A stretch of DNA of 4,454 bases from a virus. Lineage: Duplodnaviria > Heunggongvirae > Uroviricota > Caudoviricetes. The position numbers and the translations under genes were made by a program. The notes beneath the pieces were generated by a model that was given only the letters and a program-made list of their open reading frames with translations, was not told the origin of the DNA and did no database searches. Positions 1,900-3,912 of this stretch are shown here, piece by piece (the stretch's first letter is position 1; each line of letters begins with the position of its first letter). The stretch covers positions 1 to 4,454 of the IMG/VR virus record IMGVR_UViG_2645727555_000025. One strand, given 5' to 3'.

Positions 1900-2319
1900 T
1901 AGATAAGTACAAACTATTCATAAAGTGAATTGTAAGTGCTAAGATCTGATAGTTTCCAGTCGTAGACTGGAGGCTCGACCTGATGGGTGGGGGTAAGCGT
2001 CACTGGCGTCAGGTTTAAAAAAGCTCACTACCAGCGTAGAACCGGTGCCGTATAGGTGTCGGGGAAGGGGGAACCAAAGTGAGCAGAGACAAGGGTCACT
2101 TTATGATTGTCGAGTCTGGGGTGTTTCGAGAGGTTGAATCCAGTACTCCCCTTCATAAAGTGTGGGAAGATCTCGGTTCTGGGGTGCTGTCATCCATAAC
2201 TTCCCAAGTCTAAGCTGGCAGTAGACTTAGACCATAGCTTTTCAGGTTATGAAACGACCAGGTTGGTGAGGAATTTTATACTCACCTCCCTGGGAGAGTA
2301 TTACCTGAAAAGACAACCT

Positions 2320-2357
2320 CTCACTTCGTTCGAGGTGAACTTCACTCACTTCGTTCG
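2320..2357. repeat. Two perfect 13-bp direct repeats CTCACTTCGTTCG (2320-2332 and 2345-2357) flanking the small palindrome GTGAAC-TTCAC
   Basis: Read directly; about 125 bp upstream of the RNase H start codon. Confidence 0.6.
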
Positions 2358-2418
2358 TTCAGTTCAGGTTTATAAAAACCTGTTCTGGGAAGTAATTTGT
2401 TTATTTTAATAATTATTA

Positions 2419-2443
2419 ACACGCACGCGTGTGCGCACGCGCG
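2419..2443. promoter_or_regulatory. 25-nt perfectly alternating purine-pyrimidine tract (ACACGCACGCGTGTGCGCACGCGCG) with nested palindromes, in the RNase H promoter/5' UTR
   Basis: Strict Pu/Py alternation across 2419-2443; palindromes CACGCGTG (2424-2431) and GTGCGCAC (2431-2438); preceded by an AT-rich stretch (2393-2418) and followed by SD AGGAG (2471-2475). Confidence 0.5.
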
Positions 2444-2480
2444 AGGAAAAATCGGCGCGGCGCTTGATTCAGGAGTTTAT

Positions 2481-3071: not shown

Positions 3072-3168
3072 TAAGTAAGTGTTTACCTATCATTTTAAAT
3101 CATGTATCTTATCGGCGTCAGGATGACAATGTGTCGGTAAGACACAGTTCCAGGATGGAACGAGAAAG

Positions 3169-3190
3169 GCGGCTGGCAATCGCCAGCCGC
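3169..3190 (+). terminator. GC-rich hairpin (9-bp stem, 4-nt loop), possible terminator/attenuator after the RNase H gene
   Basis: GCGGCTGGC-AATC-GCCAGCCGC followed by AACTCTTTCT, a weak U-tract. Confidence 0.4.
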
Positions 3191-3219
3191 AACTCTTTCT
3201 GACACTGGATGGAGTCCAC

Positions 3220-3714
3220 ATGGCACGTCAAACCTATTTCACTTCTGTAACTAAACGTCCTCGTTCTTTACGTCAAATTTTGGCCGAATTATTTAGCGGT
3301 CGTGTTATGTCACGTCTTGATGAACTAGAGACTACCGTTCGGTTGCTGAATGAACGTTTAGATAATCAAGCGTCAGTTGTTGCGAACGTGGGGGCGATTG
3401 TTGCCTCTGGTTCTTCACGCGAAGCGAAAAATGCACGGCCTTTAGTGAAGGAGAAAAACAACAAGGACAGTTCGAATGGAAAATTTTCAAAGAAAGAGGC
3501 TGAAACCAATGGCCTACGTTCTCATTATAGTTTCACTGGCGACGGTAGCCGTTCCAGCCGGTCAGAGCCTTTTGATGCCGGATTCATCCATCACCACACC
3601 TTCGTCGACGACAATTACCACCACTCCAGTGGAGCGTCCTGTCACTCTGGATGGGATGGCGGTGGATGCGATACCTCAAGTTCATCCAGTTACTCAGGAT
3701 CATGCTGTGACTAA
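3220..3714 (+). CDS. Hypothetical protein, predicted coiled-coil N-terminal half; C-terminal third is low-complexity (His/Ser/Cys/Gly) and may not be translated as drawn
   Basis: ATG 3220 with GGAG (3211-3214) at 5-nt spacing; first ~85 codons look like genuine coding sequence (amphipathic LDELETTVRLLNERLDN). From ~3480 the +1 frame looks more gene-like than this frame. Confidence 0.4.
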   Translation: MARQTYFTSVTKRPRSLRQILAELFSGRVMSRLDELETTVRLLNERLDNQASVVANVGAIVASGSSREAKNARPLVKEKNNKDSSNGKFSKKEAETNGLRSHYSFTGDGSRSSRSEPFDAGFIHHHTFVDDNYHHSSGASCHSGWDGGGCDTSSSSSYSGSCCD

Positions 3715-3727
3715 GGCGGTTGTATGA
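3476..3727 (+). CDS. Small secreted or membrane-anchored Thr/Pro-rich protein (83 aa) with N-terminal signal-peptide-like segment
   Basis: ATG 3476 preceded by AAGGA (3463-3467); basic n-region MENFQRKRLKP, hydrophobic h-region MAYVLIIVSLATVAV, then PAGQS and a T/S/P-rich region; codon choice looks typical for enterobacterial genes; stop TGA overlaps the next ATG. Confidence 0.5.
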   Translation: MENFQRKRLKPMAYVLIIVSLATVAVPAGQSLLMPDSSITTPSSTTITTTPVERPVTLDGMAVDAIPQVHPVTQDHAVTKAVV

Positions 3728-3912
3728 ACTGGTTTTCAAATCACTTTGGAAAAATTTGGCTGGCAATTCTTGCCCTCATGGCCGCCGGTTGGGTATCGAA
3801 CATTATAAAACTTGTTTGCTCTGGCGATCTCCAGTTTCAGGCTGGCATGACCTTGGCTCGTGTAGTTGGGATTTTTATTTTTCCAGTCGGTTCGGTACTT
3901 GGTTATTTCTGA
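3724..3912 (+). CDS. Small membrane protein (62 aa, two predicted transmembrane helices)
   Basis: ATG 3724 overlaps the upstream stop (ATGA), SD-like AAGGCGG upstream; hydrophobic segments IWLAILALMAAGWV and LARVVGIFIFPVGSVLGYF. Preferred over the W/C-rich ORF at 3720-3950 in another frame. Confidence 0.5.
   Translation: MNWFSNHFGKIWLAILALMAAGWVSNIIKLVCSGDLQFQAGMTLARVVGIFIFPVGSVLGYF

What the first reader, a model, noticed from the sequence alone, without database searches (positions are those of the whole stretch)
3220..3727. Two overlapping out-of-frame ORFs that both look protein-like
The frame-1 ORF (3220-3714) begins with good signals and a coiled-coil N-terminal half, but its last third is His/Ser/Cys/Gly low-complexity. 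In that same stretch the +1 frame encodes a convincing signal-peptide protein (3476-3727). Options are a frameshift (real, programmed, or a sequencing error) or a genuine embedded gene in a spanin-like overlapped layout.
Basis: seen in the sequence. Interest (0 to 1): 0.55.

Follow-up and report, generated by a model that had tools for sequence, protein, structure and literature searches.

The report
Conserved overlapping gene pair in phage-plasmids
A stretch of an SSU5/pHCM2-type phage-plasmid encodes two different proteins in two reading frames, and the small membrane protein that annotators usually miss is the better conserved of the two; it is a new example of a known viral trick, with unknown function.

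Summary
ORF1 (3220-3714, 164 aa) and a +1-frame ORF (3476-3727, 83 aa) share 239 nt. The window is 100% identical to E. coli phage-plasmid pECOH89 (SSU5/pHCM2 family), so this is not a sequencing error. Both frames stay open in at least ten diverged lineages. Their stop codons are always 10-13 nt apart, and the third frame carries 3-7 stops. In the 5' half of the overlap only the embedded frame shows purifying selection. ORF1's tail still avoids nonsense mutations (10.9 expected, 0 seen). It is open by chance in only 1-9% of synonymous shuffles per lineage. At the deepest divergence the unannotated embedded protein is still found by BLASTP (35% identity), while ORF1 is not. No conserved slippery site exists. 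The embedded ATG is conserved, as is a GGA(G) Shine-Dalgarno core within the SSU5 clade. Best reading: a genuine overlapping gene pair with independent internal initiation. ORF1 is a cytoplasmic coiled-coil protein with a disordered His/Ser/Gly/Cys tail. The embedded product is a single-pass membrane protein, usually coupled (ATGA or GTGA) to a 62-aa two-TM gene. The layout resembles overlapped spanins, but neither protein is a spanin. Function is unknown. Verdict: a new member of a known kind, of moderate interest.

The parts
3220..3714 (+). ORF1: 164-aa cytoplasmic protein with a long N-terminal helix (likely coiled coil) and a disordered His/Ser/Gly/Cys-rich tail ending in CCD. Matches phrog_10411.
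   Evidence: ORF list. Annotated as hypothetical protein WP_021512350.1 and as SSU5_091. PHROG hit E=7e-79. AF2 model: helices 17-25 and 28-71, residues 68-164 pLDDT below 50. Normal coding signature in codons 2-85: changes per site 1.45/1.04/2.45 at codon positions 1/2/3.
3211..3214 (+). Shine-Dalgarno GGAG of ORF1, 5 nt upstream of the ATG.
   Evidence: Read from the sequence. A GGA core is kept in the SSU5-clade lineages.
3476..3727 (+). Embedded (overlapped) +1-frame gene: 83-aa single-pass membrane protein with a basic N-terminus, a TM helix, a Thr/Pro-rich spacer and a conserved TL(D/E)GM.(L/V)D motif. Matches phrog_15659. Not annotated in any of the 16 annotated records examined.
   Evidence: ORF list. 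PHROG hit E=8e-47. tblastn matches in 679 plasmids. Embedded-frame coding signature and 1.89-fold enrichment of embedded-synonymous changes. Start codon conserved in every lineage examined. BLASTP E=5e-9 to the deep-clade homolog.
3463..3467 (+). Shine-Dalgarno-like AAGGA, 8 nt upstream of the embedded ATG.
   Evidence: A GGA(G) core ending 9-10 nt upstream of the start codon is conserved in the seven SSU5-clade lineages and in L087 and L089. It is not evident in deep-clade L091/L093.
3509..3565 (+). Transmembrane segment of the embedded protein (residues 12-30, MAYVLIIVSLATVAVPAGQ). The same DNA encodes ORF1's unconstrained linker.
   Evidence: Kyte-Doolittle maximum 2.53. AF2 helix 2-29. Rates in this region are 1.92/0.92/0.67 at ORF1 codon positions 1/2/3, which is the embedded-frame pattern.
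3570..3573 (+). T4 run where loss of one T fuses the ORF1 N-terminus to the embedded C-terminus in rare database variants. Not a conserved slippery site.
   Evidence: P0028, P0030 and P0031 read ...SEP|LMPD.... The run is absent in 5 of 7 lineages.
3646..3658 (+). Dual-coded island TCT GGA TGG GAT G, read as SGWD in ORF1 and LDGM in the embedded frame. Every base is invariant across the SSU5 clade except one base in L011.
   Evidence: Nucleotide comparison of ten sequences. The synonymous sites of each frame are frozen here. In the deep clade the embedded TLEGM is kept while ORF1 SGWD becomes TGGY.
3712..3727 (+). Termination and re-initiation junction: ORF1 stop TAA (3712-3714), embedded stop TGA (3725-3727), and the ATG of the next gene (3724-3726), giving an ATGA overlap.
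   Evidence: Read from the sequence. The 13-nt offset between the two stops is constant in the SSU5 clade and is 10-13 nt in the deep clade. Klebsiella has a GTGA overlap.
3724..3912 (+). Downstream 62-aa gene for a protein with two TM segments (phrog_6006). It is translationally coupled to the embedded ORF. It is present in most SSU5-clade lineages and absent in L011 and the deep clade.
   Evidence: two hydrophobic segments.
3131..3190 (+). Structured leader between rnhA and ORF1: three hairpins (3131-3145; 3147-3161 with an AGGAU loop; 3169-3190, terminator-like).
   Evidence: Terminator scan. RNAalifold on 8 lineages gives 26 pairs, 5 of them with compensatory double changes. Hairpin 3 is kept with a changed stem in the deep clade.

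Best explanation
This is a genuine, ancient, out-of-frame overlapping gene pair, and both products are made from one mRNA by independent initiation. Ribosomes that start at 3220 make ORF1, a cytoplasmic protein with a long N-terminal helix (probably a coiled coil) and a roughly 95-residue disordered tail rich in His, Ser, Gly, Cys and Asp. Ribosomes that start at the internal SD and ATG (3463-3467 and 3476) read the +1 frame. They make an 83-aa protein with a basic cytoplasmic N-terminus, one TM helix, a Thr/Pro-rich periplasmic spacer of variable length and a conserved C-terminal TL(D/E)GM.(L/V)D motif. The stop of that ORF overlaps the start of a 62-aa two-TM gene (ATGA or GTGA), so the two small membrane proteins are probably made together and act together. 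The overlap is tolerable because it falls entirely within ORF1's disordered tail. Over the embedded TM segment ORF1 is free to vary (a 'segregated' pattern). Over the 3' half both products are loosely constrained, with short dual-coded islands. What is shown: both frames are maintained, the embedded frame is under amino-acid-level selection, start signals are conserved, and there is no frameshift signal. What is inferred: translation of both products, the N-in/C-out topology, coupling to the 62-aa gene, and any role. My best guess at function, held with low confidence, is an envelope-acting accessory module of the lysogenic phage-plasmid, for example superinfection exclusion or a Tci/TerB-associated function. 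That guess rests on the fixed position between rnhA and the TerB/DUF3927 genes.
For: Identity and provenance: 100% identical to pECOH89 and other complete plasmids, and present in 211 of 5426 complete E. coli genomes. It belongs to the SSU5 family.

Architecture: both frames are open, with stops 13 nt apart, in the 50 unique intact sequences (7 lineages) used for the tests. The same holds in Buttiauxella and Kluyvera, in L089 and in deep-clade L087, L088, L091, L093, L094, L095 and L097, with offsets of 10-13 nt. The third frame has 3-7 stops within the overlap.

Selection on the embedded frame: parsimony changes per site at ORF1 codon positions 1/2/3 are 1.45/1.04/2.45 outside the overlap and 1.92/0.92/0.67 in its 5' half (Wilcoxon p=0.003). 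Changes synonymous only in the embedded frame number 63 observed against 33 expected; those synonymous only in ORF1 number 16 against 33 (chi-square p=8e-9).

Frame maintenance: 10.9 nonsense events are expected in the ORF1 tail and 7.9 in the embedded frame, and none is observed (P=2e-5 and 4e-4). P(ORF1 open | embedded protein) is 0.010-0.087 in each of 9 lineages. In the 3' half the 'synonymous' positions of both frames are slower than the single-coding synonymous rate (p=0.002 and 0.03). TCT GGA TGG GAT G is an invariant island.

Deep conservation: the embedded protein gives BLASTP E=5e-9 at 35% identity, whereas ORF1 gives no alignment. Distant ORF1 relatives keep the tail's composition and the ...CD end.

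Initiation: the ATG/GTG and a GGA(G) core are conserved. There is no slippery heptamer and the T4 run is not conserved.

Structure. No RNA-structure signal in the overlap: z=+0.68 and no Rfam match there. The general principle that disorder relieves overlap constraints is reviewed in PMC8227390.
Against: No expression data (Ribo-seq, proteomics) were available, so translation of either product is inferred. In the 3' half of the overlap, amino-acid-level selection cannot be assigned to either frame (chi-square p=0.15). Function of ORF1's tail therefore rests on frame maintenance, composition and a few islands. The embedded frame's openness alone is unremarkable (12-70% by chance). The SD is not evident upstream of the embedded ATG in deep-clade L091/L093. 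Exceptions exist. pCAV1752-111 has a TAG at embedded codon 3, although its sister plasmids are intact. Frame-fusion variants occur: L053, L079 and L092 and P0028, P0030, P0031, P0035, P0041, P0050 and P0053. One locus has an IS insertion (L009). The parsimony counts ignore recombination, which is evident in this family (mosaics P0025, P0010 and L068), so the expected nonsense numbers may be inflated. Halving them still gives P of about 0.004 and 0.02. No family, defence-system or structural match suggests a function.
Confidence: 0.75

Rival explanations
1. Only the embedded gene is functional within the overlap. ORF1 is a real gene, but its last 80 or so codons are a functionless, tolerated extension. 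On this view ORF1 once ended near 3475 and read through into a pre-existing membrane-protein gene. The tail stays open for indirect reasons, such as delivering ribosomes to the downstream start or avoiding polarity.
For: No amino-acid-level constraint on ORF1 in the 5' half of the overlap: ORF1-synonymous changes are depleted, 16 observed against 33 expected. The whole tail is predicted disordered. At deep divergence the embedded motif TL(D/E)GM is kept while ORF1 SGWD is not, and ORF1 is undetectable by BLASTP. CAI of the embedded frame is at least that of the ORF1 tail in 7 of 7 lineages. ORF1's stop lies 9 nt upstream of the next gene's ATG.
Against: A functionless tail should have acquired stops: 10.9 are expected and none is observed, and chance openness is 1-9% per lineage in nine lineages. 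The tail ends at the same place (10-13 nt before the embedded stop) even where the 62-aa gene is absent, as in L011, L087 and L091, so coupling to that gene cannot be the reason. Tail composition (a His run, Ser/Gly/Cys/Asp, terminal C-D or F-D) persists in the most distant relatives. Embedded third positions are slowed in the 3' half (p=0.002).
Confidence: 0.17
2. Only ORF1 is a gene. The +1 ORF is a compositional by-product of a tail poor in hydrophobic residues, and its apparent conservation merely shadows ORF1's conservation.
For: With the ORF1 protein fixed, the +1 frame is open in 12-70% of synonymous shuffles. None of the 16 annotated records examined calls the embedded ORF.
Against: Over the TM segment ORF1's own third positions are the slowest sites (0.67) and the embedded third positions the fastest (1.92), and embedded-synonymous changes are enriched 1.89-fold. 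That is the opposite of what ORF1-only coding predicts. The start codon is conserved in every lineage examined, with a conserved GGA(G) core in the SSU5 clade and L087. The embedded protein is more conserved than ORF1 at depth. Its stop overlaps the next gene's start as ATGA or GTGA. 7.9 nonsense events are expected and none is observed.
Confidence: 0.03
3. A programmed ribosomal frameshift (or transcriptional slippage) joins the ORF1 N-terminus to the +1-frame C-terminus, so the functional product is a fusion protein rather than two separate proteins.
For: Natural variants that fuse the two frames exist and recur. Loss of one T at the T4 run 3570-3573 gives P0028 (6 members, 5 contigs), P0030 and P0031. 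Other junctions occur in L053 and L079, in L092 and in P0041, P0050 and P0053.
Against: No X_XXY_YYZ heptamer occurs in ORF1 in any lineage, and the T4 run is replaced by non-slippery sequence in 5 of 7 lineages. The fusion junctions differ from case to case, as expected of sporadic indels or homopolymer assembly errors. The +1 frame has its own conserved start codon and basic N-terminus, MENFQRKRL, which a fusion joining downstream of it would not include and would have no reason to conserve. No stable RNA structure is predicted in the overlap (z=+0.68).
Confidence: 0.03
4. The two-frame appearance is a sequencing or assembly indel in this window, and homologs have a single uninterrupted frame.
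For: None found.
Against: Identical sequence in several independent complete assemblies. Neither frame is interrupted, so there is no broken frame to repair. Every lineage shows the same two frames.
Confidence: 0.01

Closest known systems
Two-component spanins in the 'overlapped' or 'embedded' gene arrangement (lambda Rz/Rz1, P2 lysB/lysC)
   Same: A small envelope-targeted protein is encoded in the +1 frame inside the 3' part of a larger gene with a coiled-coil region. As in the P2-type 'overlapped' class, the inner gene runs slightly past the outer gene's stop. The inner product has a hydrophobic N-terminal segment and a Pro/Thr-rich body. Both occur on a tailed phage genome. (The description of spanin features is from my own knowledge.)
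   Different: The outer protein has no N-terminal TM domain and is predicted cytoplasmic. The inner protein has no lipobox and no conserved Cys. The locus lies between rnhA and TerB/DUF3927 genes, not in a holin-endolysin cassette. No sequence similarity to any spanin family was found.
Overprinted out-of-frame gene pairs of viruses in general (for example phiX174 D/E; reviewed in PMC8227390)
   Same: Two unrelated proteins come from one DNA stretch. The overlap lies in a disordered region of one partner, which relieves the constraint. Regions of asymmetric ('segregated') and symmetric evolution are mixed. Like phiX174 E, the inner product is a protein of about 90 aa with an N-terminal TM helix, encoded +1 within another gene (the E comparison is from my own knowledge).
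   Different: This occurs in a roughly 110-kb genome with no obvious pressure for compaction. The inner gene appears to be the more conserved, possibly older, partner. There is no evidence of lysis activity, and the predicted topology and sequence are unrelated to E.
PHROG families phrog_10411, phrog_15659 and phrog_6006 (all of unknown function)
   Same: ORF1, the embedded ORF and the 62-aa gene match these profiles at E=7e-79, 8e-47 and 2e-25. Each frame has therefore been called as a CDS in at least some phage records.
   Different: The phrog_15659 profile starts at the second Met (M12), whereas comparative data favour the first ATG: M12 is Ile in L011 and Leu in the deep clade. I found nothing in the searched literature that describes the two families as dual-coded from the same DNA.
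Small prophage-encoded single-pass inner-membrane exclusion proteins (for example T4 Imm, HK97 gp15)
   Same: Small size, one N-terminal TM helix with a short periplasmic part, and a location among accessory genes of a temperate element. This comparison rests on my own knowledge and is a functional analogy only.
   Different: No sequence or profile similarity was detected, and no functional test was possible. Those proteins are not encoded inside another gene.

Membership tests
Two-component spanin (i-spanin / o-spanin) | The outer gene product (i-spanin) has an N-terminal transmembrane domain followed by a periplasmic coiled coil. | tested here: not met
   ORF1's highest 15-residue Kyte-Doolittle window is 1.45, and no window exceeds 1.6. 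AF2 shows a soluble helix at 28-71.
Two-component spanin (i-spanin / o-spanin) | The inner gene product (o-spanin) is a lipoprotein: a signal peptide ending in a lipobox with an invariant Cys. | tested here: not met
   The window's embedded protein contains no Cys. There is no invariant Cys in the 9-lineage or 23-sequence alignments.
Two-component spanin (i-spanin / o-spanin) | The inner gene lies in the +1 frame, embedded in or overlapping the 3' end of the outer gene. | tested here: met
   (3476-3220) mod 3 = 1. The embedded ORF ends 13 nt after ORF1's stop.
Two-component spanin (i-spanin / o-spanin) | Located in a lysis cassette with holin and endolysin genes. | tested here: not met
   The neighbours in 8.8 kb are an exonuclease, Dam, rnhA, TerB-like, DUF3927 and DUF4942 genes. 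Only the flanks were examined, not the whole genome.
Functional out-of-frame overlapping (overprinted) gene pair | Both reading frames are kept open across diverged homologs beyond what chance predicts. | tested here: met
   Nonsense events expected 10.9 (ORF1 tail) and 7.9 (embedded), observed 0. ORF1 is open by chance in 1-9% of shuffles per lineage but is open in all lineages. The third frame has 3-7 stops. Openness of the embedded frame alone is not significant (12-70%).
Functional out-of-frame overlapping (overprinted) gene pair | A purifying-selection signature in the second (embedded) frame. | tested here: met
   Rates of 1.92/0.92/0.67 at ORF1 positions 1/2/3 in the 5' half. Embedded-synonymous changes are enriched 1.89-fold (chi-square p=8e-9).
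Functional out-of-frame overlapping (overprinted) gene pair | A purifying-selection signature at the amino-acid level in the first frame (ORF1) within the overlap. | tested here: inconclusive
   5' half: none (ORF1-synonymous changes are depleted). 3' half: ORF1-synonymous ratio 1.22 against 0.89, p=0.15. Support comes only from frame maintenance, slowed embedded third positions (p=0.002) and retained composition.
Functional out-of-frame overlapping (overprinted) gene pair | An independent translation start for the inner gene. | tested here: met
   An ATG (GTG in L087) is conserved in every lineage examined. A GGA(G) core ending 9-10 nt upstream is conserved in the SSU5 clade, L087 and L089. 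No clear SD is seen in L091/L093.
Functional out-of-frame overlapping (overprinted) gene pair | Both proteins are detected experimentally. | not testable with these tools
   No Ribo-seq or proteomic data were available. Literature searches found nothing on this locus.
Programmed ribosomal frameshift product (for example the tail-chaperone G/GT type) | A conserved slippery sequence at the frame junction, usually with a downstream stimulatory structure. | tested here: not met
   No X_XXY_YYZ heptamer in 7 lineages, and the T4 run is not conserved. The fold z-score of the overlap is +0.68.
PHROG phrog_10411 / phrog_15659 / phrog_6006 | A significant match to the family profile. | tested here: met
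   E=7e-79, 8e-47 and 2e-25.

The most novel reading that the evidence does not exclude
The ORF1 / embedded-protein / 62-aa-protein trio is a previously unrecognised envelope-acting module of SSU5-type phage-plasmids. In it, dual coding enforces co-inheritance and fixed co-expression of three parts: a cytoplasmic coiled-coil protein with a metal- or partner-binding Cys/His tail, a membrane-anchored protein whose Thr/Pro stalk of variable length spans the periplasm, and a two-TM partner. It could be a new kind of superinfection-exclusion or trans-envelope device, architecturally convergent with spanins but unrelated to them. On this reading the embedded gene is the ancestral one and ORF1's tail was born by read-through overprinting.
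Probability: 0.15. Interest if true: 0.65.

Novelty: new member of a known kind. Interest (0 to 1): 0.47.

Why it matters
SSU5/pHCM2-type phage-plasmids are common in clinical E. coli, Klebsiella, Salmonella Typhi, Enterobacter and Cronobacter. The pair was found on about 680 PLSDB plasmids, with a deep clade on 33 more, and in 211 of 5426 complete E. coli genomes. In every annotated record examined the better-conserved of the two genes is missing, and in several Klebsiella records neither gene is listed. That is a concrete, correctable annotation gap. The locus is also a clean natural example of long (about 240 nt) same-strand dual coding in a large dsDNA phage genome outside lysis cassettes. 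It shows a textbook split between a segment where one frame dominates and a segment where both are loosely constrained. Single-nucleotide mutations exist that silence one gene without touching the other, so the pair is directly testable. It does not overturn any concept, because overlapping genes in phages are well known.

Tried and rejected
1. Spanin identity: rejected. ORF1 has no TM domain, the embedded protein has no lipobox Cys, and the flanks hold no lysis genes.

2. Programmed frameshift: rejected. There is no conserved slippery site.

3. Sequencing error: rejected.

4. An RNA element as the cause of the nucleotide conservation: no Rfam match in the overlap and a fold z-score of +0.68.

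5. Function by homology: Pfam, NCBIfam, PADLOC and PDB sequence searches gave nothing significant for ORF1, the embedded ORF or the 62-aa protein. The fold-library searches were not run, because both AF2 models are a single helix plus a low-confidence tail and matches would be meaningless.

6. A stand-alone (non-overlapping) homolog of the embedded gene, which would have fixed the direction of overprinting: the profile search found only relatives on similar elements. Of these only P0081 and P0099 were traced to their contigs. In each intact lineage examined at the DNA level, the embedded gene lies inside an ORF1 homolog.

7. DNA for the P0051 lineage was not found in viral or metagenome contigs.

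8. The genome-contig scan with the ORF1 alignment failed for lack of a conserved block. The scan with the embedded alignment added only Buttiauxella and Kluyvera plus one spurious hit, L086.

9. Codon usage (CAI) as a test of which frame is ancestral gave only a small, consistent edge to the embedded frame, which I treat as weak.

10. One script timed out, and my first regular expression missed four loci, which I then inspected by hand.
Full report
WHAT THE WINDOW IS. The 851 bases around the finding are 100% identical to E. coli plasmid pECOH89 (NC_023916.1) and several other complete plasmids of about 110 kb. Matches occur in 211 of 5426 complete E. coli genomes, almost all on plasmids. They also occur in Escherichia phages CMS-2020a, PhiR41_1 and Cyrano. 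Protein-level matches reach Salmonella phage SSU5, pHCM2 of S. Typhi and many Klebsiella, Enterobacter, Citrobacter and Cronobacter plasmids. The window is therefore part of an SSU5/pHCM2-type phage-plasmid. The local gene order is Dam methylase, a small ORF, a 580-nt gap, rnhA, ORF1, a 62-aa gene, a TerB-like gene (TciA-like) and DUF3927.

CHECKING THE OBSERVATION. The ORF list gives ORF1 at 3220-3714 (164 aa) and a +1-frame ORF at 3476-3727 (83 aa), as stated. ORF1 has a GGAG 5 nt upstream of its ATG. The embedded ORF has AAGGA (3463-3467) 8 nt upstream of its ATG. The embedded stop (TGA, 3725-3727) overlaps the ATG (3724-3726) of the next gene, while ORF1 stops 9 nt before that ATG. AlphaFold models ORF1 as a long helix (28-71, pLDDT up to 90) followed by a tail with pLDDT below 50 (68-164), which contains the whole overlap. 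The embedded protein is a helix over residues 2-29 followed by an extended chain. It has one strongly hydrophobic segment; ORF1 has none and the 62-aa protein has two. All 16 annotated records I inspected list at most the ORF1 frame at this locus, and four of them list nothing there. PHROGs nonetheless has separate families for both frames: phrog_10411 and phrog_15659.

IS IT A SEQUENCING ERROR OR A FRAMESHIFT? No. Neither frame is interrupted, and independent assemblies agree. Some database proteins do fuse the ORF1 N-terminus to the embedded C-terminus. P0028, P0030 and P0031 result from loss of one T in the T4 run at 3570-3573. P0041, P0050, P0053, L053, L079 and L092 have junctions elsewhere. 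These variants are rare, their junctions differ, and the T4 run is replaced by non-slippery sequence in five of seven lineages. No X_XXY_YYZ heptamer exists in ORF1 in any lineage. They look like sporadic indels or homopolymer assembly errors, not programmed frameshifting.

COMPARATIVE ANATOMY. I collected 99 loci from plasmids, phages, viral contigs, genomes and metagenome assemblies. Fifty unique intact sequences fall into seven lineages at 42-100% ORF1 identity: window type, pHCM2/SSU5 type, RHB17 type, Cronobacter, Klebsiella, S. Newport and L059. In all of them both frames are open and the two stops are exactly 13 nt apart. The same holds in Buttiauxella and Kluyvera and in L089. A profile search with ORF1 then found much more distant relatives (P0045, P0051, P0058). 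A profile search with the embedded protein found a deep clade on Klebsiella and Raoultella elements of about 110 kb. In deep-clade loci L087, L088, L091, L093, L094, L095 and L097 the same architecture recurs between rnhA and TerB. Each has a coiled-coil ORF1 with a His-run and a Ser/Gly/Cys/Asp tail ending in CD or FD, and a +1 ORF that starts (M/V)E(K/N)YQ(R/V)KRL, carries a TM segment and a Thr/Pro-rich spacer of variable length, and ends with TLEGMTLDAPIR. The stops are 10-13 nt apart. The third frame carries 3-7 stops within the overlap in every lineage. In no lineage examined does the embedded gene stand alone. The exceptions among the loci were an IS3 insertion (L009), a rearranged ORF1 5' end (L067), three frame fusions (L053, L079, L092) and one TAG at embedded codon 3 in pCAV1752-111. 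Two sister plasmids of the last lack that TAG.

WHICH FRAME IS UNDER SELECTION? On a neighbour-joining tree of the 50 sequences I counted Fitch parsimony changes per site. Outside the overlap, ORF1 shows the normal coding pattern: 1.45, 1.04 and 2.45 changes per site at codon positions 1, 2 and 3 (p3 against p2, p=2e-10). Inside the overlap ORF1's third positions drop to 1.32 (Mann-Whitney p=2e-7). In the 5' half, which encodes the embedded TM segment, the pattern is 1.92, 0.92 and 0.67. That is exactly the pattern of coding in the embedded frame, because ORF1 position 1 is embedded position 3. I also classified each inferred change in both frames against neutral expectation (kappa 2). In the 5' half, changes synonymous only in the embedded frame number 63 against 33 expected. 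Those synonymous only in ORF1 number 16 against 33, and those non-synonymous in both number 47 against 59 (chi-square p=8e-9). The embedded protein is thus under purifying selection (omega roughly 0.4), and ORF1 shows no amino-acid constraint there. In the 3' half the three classes do not differ significantly from expectation (p=0.15).

IS ORF1'S TAIL MAINTAINED? Yes, by three lines of evidence. (i) If nonsense changes were tolerated like missense changes of the same class, 10.9 would be expected in the ORF1 frame within the overlap (7.7 of them in the 3' half) and 7.9 in the embedded frame. None is seen (Poisson P=2e-5 and 4e-4). Recombination may inflate these expectations, but halving them leaves P of about 0.004 and 0.02, and the deep-clade lineages were not even counted. 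(ii) With the embedded protein fixed and synonymous codons redrawn, ORF1's frame stays open in only 1.0-8.7% of trials in each of nine lineages. The converse, embedded open given ORF1, is 12-70%, so the embedded frame's openness alone proves nothing. (iii) In the 3' half the third positions of each frame are slower than the single-coding synonymous rate (1.68 and 1.90 against 2.45; p=0.002 and 0.03). The island TCT GGA TGG GAT G (3646-3658; SGWD in ORF1, LDGM in the embedded frame) is invariant at every base across the SSU5 clade except one base in L011. That includes the sites that are synonymous in either frame. Distant ORF1 relatives keep the tail's composition and its C-terminal CD.

WHICH PARTNER IS MORE CONSERVED? 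The unannotated one. Between the window and L087 the embedded proteins align by BLASTP at 35% identity (E=5e-9). The ORF1 proteins give no alignment at all. In the dual-coded island the embedded TL(D/E)GM..DA motif survives in the deep clade, while ORF1's SGWD becomes TGGY. The embedded frame's codon adaptation index equals or exceeds that of ORF1's tail in seven of seven lineages; both lie above the third frame and below neighbouring genes. This is weak evidence that ORF1's tail is the younger reading. The alignments favour the first ATG (3476) as the start, because the second Met (M12) is Ile in L011 and Leu in the deep clade. The PHROG profile begins at M12.

HOW IT MOST LIKELY WORKS. One mRNA and two initiation sites. 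ORF1 is a cytoplasmic helical (probably coiled-coil) protein with a disordered His/Ser/Gly/Cys/Asp tail. The embedded product has a basic N-terminus (RKRLKP), one TM helix, a Thr/Pro-rich stalk of variable length and a conserved C-terminal motif, so I infer N-in/C-out topology from the positive-inside rule. A cleaved signal peptide is possible, but the residues at the candidate -3/-1 positions are not consistently permissive across lineages: V or L often sits at -1. I therefore favour a signal anchor, and this is an inference. Its stop overlaps the start of the 62-aa two-TM gene as ATGA, or as GTGA in Klebsiella, where that gene is unannotated. That suggests translational coupling and joint action. 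The 62-aa gene is dispensable for the pair, since it is absent in L011 and the deep clade. Placing the overlap in a disordered tail fits the general rule that disorder relieves overlap constraints. The mix of a segment dominated by one frame and a segment shared loosely matches the 'segregated' and 'shared' models (PMC8227390). Function is unknown: Pfam, NCBIfam, PADLOC and PDB sequence searches gave nothing. Given the fixed position between rnhA and the TerB/DUF3927 genes of a temperate element, and the small single-pass membrane architecture, my low-confidence guess is an envelope-acting accessory function such as superinfection exclusion.

COMPARISON WITH KNOWN SYSTEMS. The geometry is that of the 'overlapped' class of two-component spanin genes, but the membership test fails on three of four defining features: no TM domain in the outer protein, no lipobox in the inner one, and no lysis cassette in the flanks examined. 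It qualifies as a functional out-of-frame overlapping pair on frame maintenance, on selection in the embedded frame and on independent start signals. Amino-acid-level selection on ORF1's tail is inconclusive, and expression could not be tested. Both frames already have PHROG families of unknown function, so neither ORF is wholly new to databases. The literature searches found no description of the pair as dual-coded.

VERDICT. This is a new member of a known kind. Interest is moderate (0.47). It is a well-supported, deeply conserved, roughly 240-nt dual-coding region in a clinically widespread phage-plasmid family, the better-conserved gene is missing from standard annotation, and clean single-nucleotide tests are available. 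It has no known function and poses no conceptual surprise.

Noticed in passing
window 3131-3190: The leader between rnhA and ORF1 holds three hairpins: 3131-3145; 3147-3161 with an AGGAU loop; and 3169-3190, which is GC-rich and terminator-like with a weak T tract. RNAalifold on 8 lineages gives 26 pairs, 5 of them with compensatory double changes, and hairpin 3 persists with an altered stem in the deep clade. GGA motifs in a hairpin loop and in the SD, together with a weak Rfam CsrB hit (3116-3161, E=0.12), hint at CsrA-type translational control or an attenuator.
   Followed up: partly
window 1900-2480: A gap of about 580 nt between the small ORF (1669-1899) and rnhA has no annotated gene in RefSeq. 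It contains long-range inverted repeats (for example 1918-1928 with 2096-2106), a direct repeat CTCACTTCGTTCG x2 (2320 and 2345) and the palindrome CGCGTGTGCGCACGCGCG (2426-2443). There is no Rfam or tRNA match. It could be a non-coding RNA or a regulatory or origin-like region.
   Followed up: partly
window 3570-3573, and proteins P0028, P0030, P0031, P0035, P0041, P0050, P0053: Database variants recur in which a 1-nt loss fuses the ORF1 N-terminus to the embedded-frame C-terminus. P0028 has 6 members on 5 contigs. They are either real pseudogenising or fusing mutations, or homopolymer assembly errors.
   Followed up: partly
L005 1476-1664 (Klebsiella pSQ154B): The 62-aa two-TM gene is present but unannotated in the Klebsiella lineage. 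It starts with a GTG that overlaps the embedded ORF's stop (GTGA).
   Followed up: yes
L093, L094, L096, L098, L099 (Klebsiella deep-clade plasmids): In these records neither ORF1 nor the embedded ORF appears in the gene table, which leaves a gap of 650-775 nt between rnhA and TerB. In a JGI contig (L091) the gene caller chose the embedded ORF instead of ORF1. The PLSDB gene tables are incomplete, so the original records may differ.
   Followed up: partly
L096 907-909 (K. oxytoca pCAV1752-111): A single A-to-T change makes a TAG at codon 3 of the embedded ORF (and K to I in ORF1). Sister plasmids pCAV1099-111 and pCAV1335-118 have the intact codon.
   Followed up: yes
proteins P0025, P0029, P0033, P0010 and P0004, and locus L068: These are mosaic alleles. 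The N-terminal part of ORF1 (or of the embedded protein) comes from the RHB17/pHCM2 type and the C-terminal part from the window type, or the reverse. That shows recombination breakpoints inside the gene pair.
   Followed up: no
L067 1501-1917: In one viral contig the first 27 or so codons of ORF1 are replaced by unrelated sequence, with no obvious ATG, while the embedded ORF and the 62-aa gene remain intact.
   Followed up: no
L006 952-1452 (Cronobacter lineage): The +1 frame is open along the entire length of ORF1 (166 codons) in most Cronobacter sequences, but not in L065 (119 codons), so this is probably chance.
   Followed up: no
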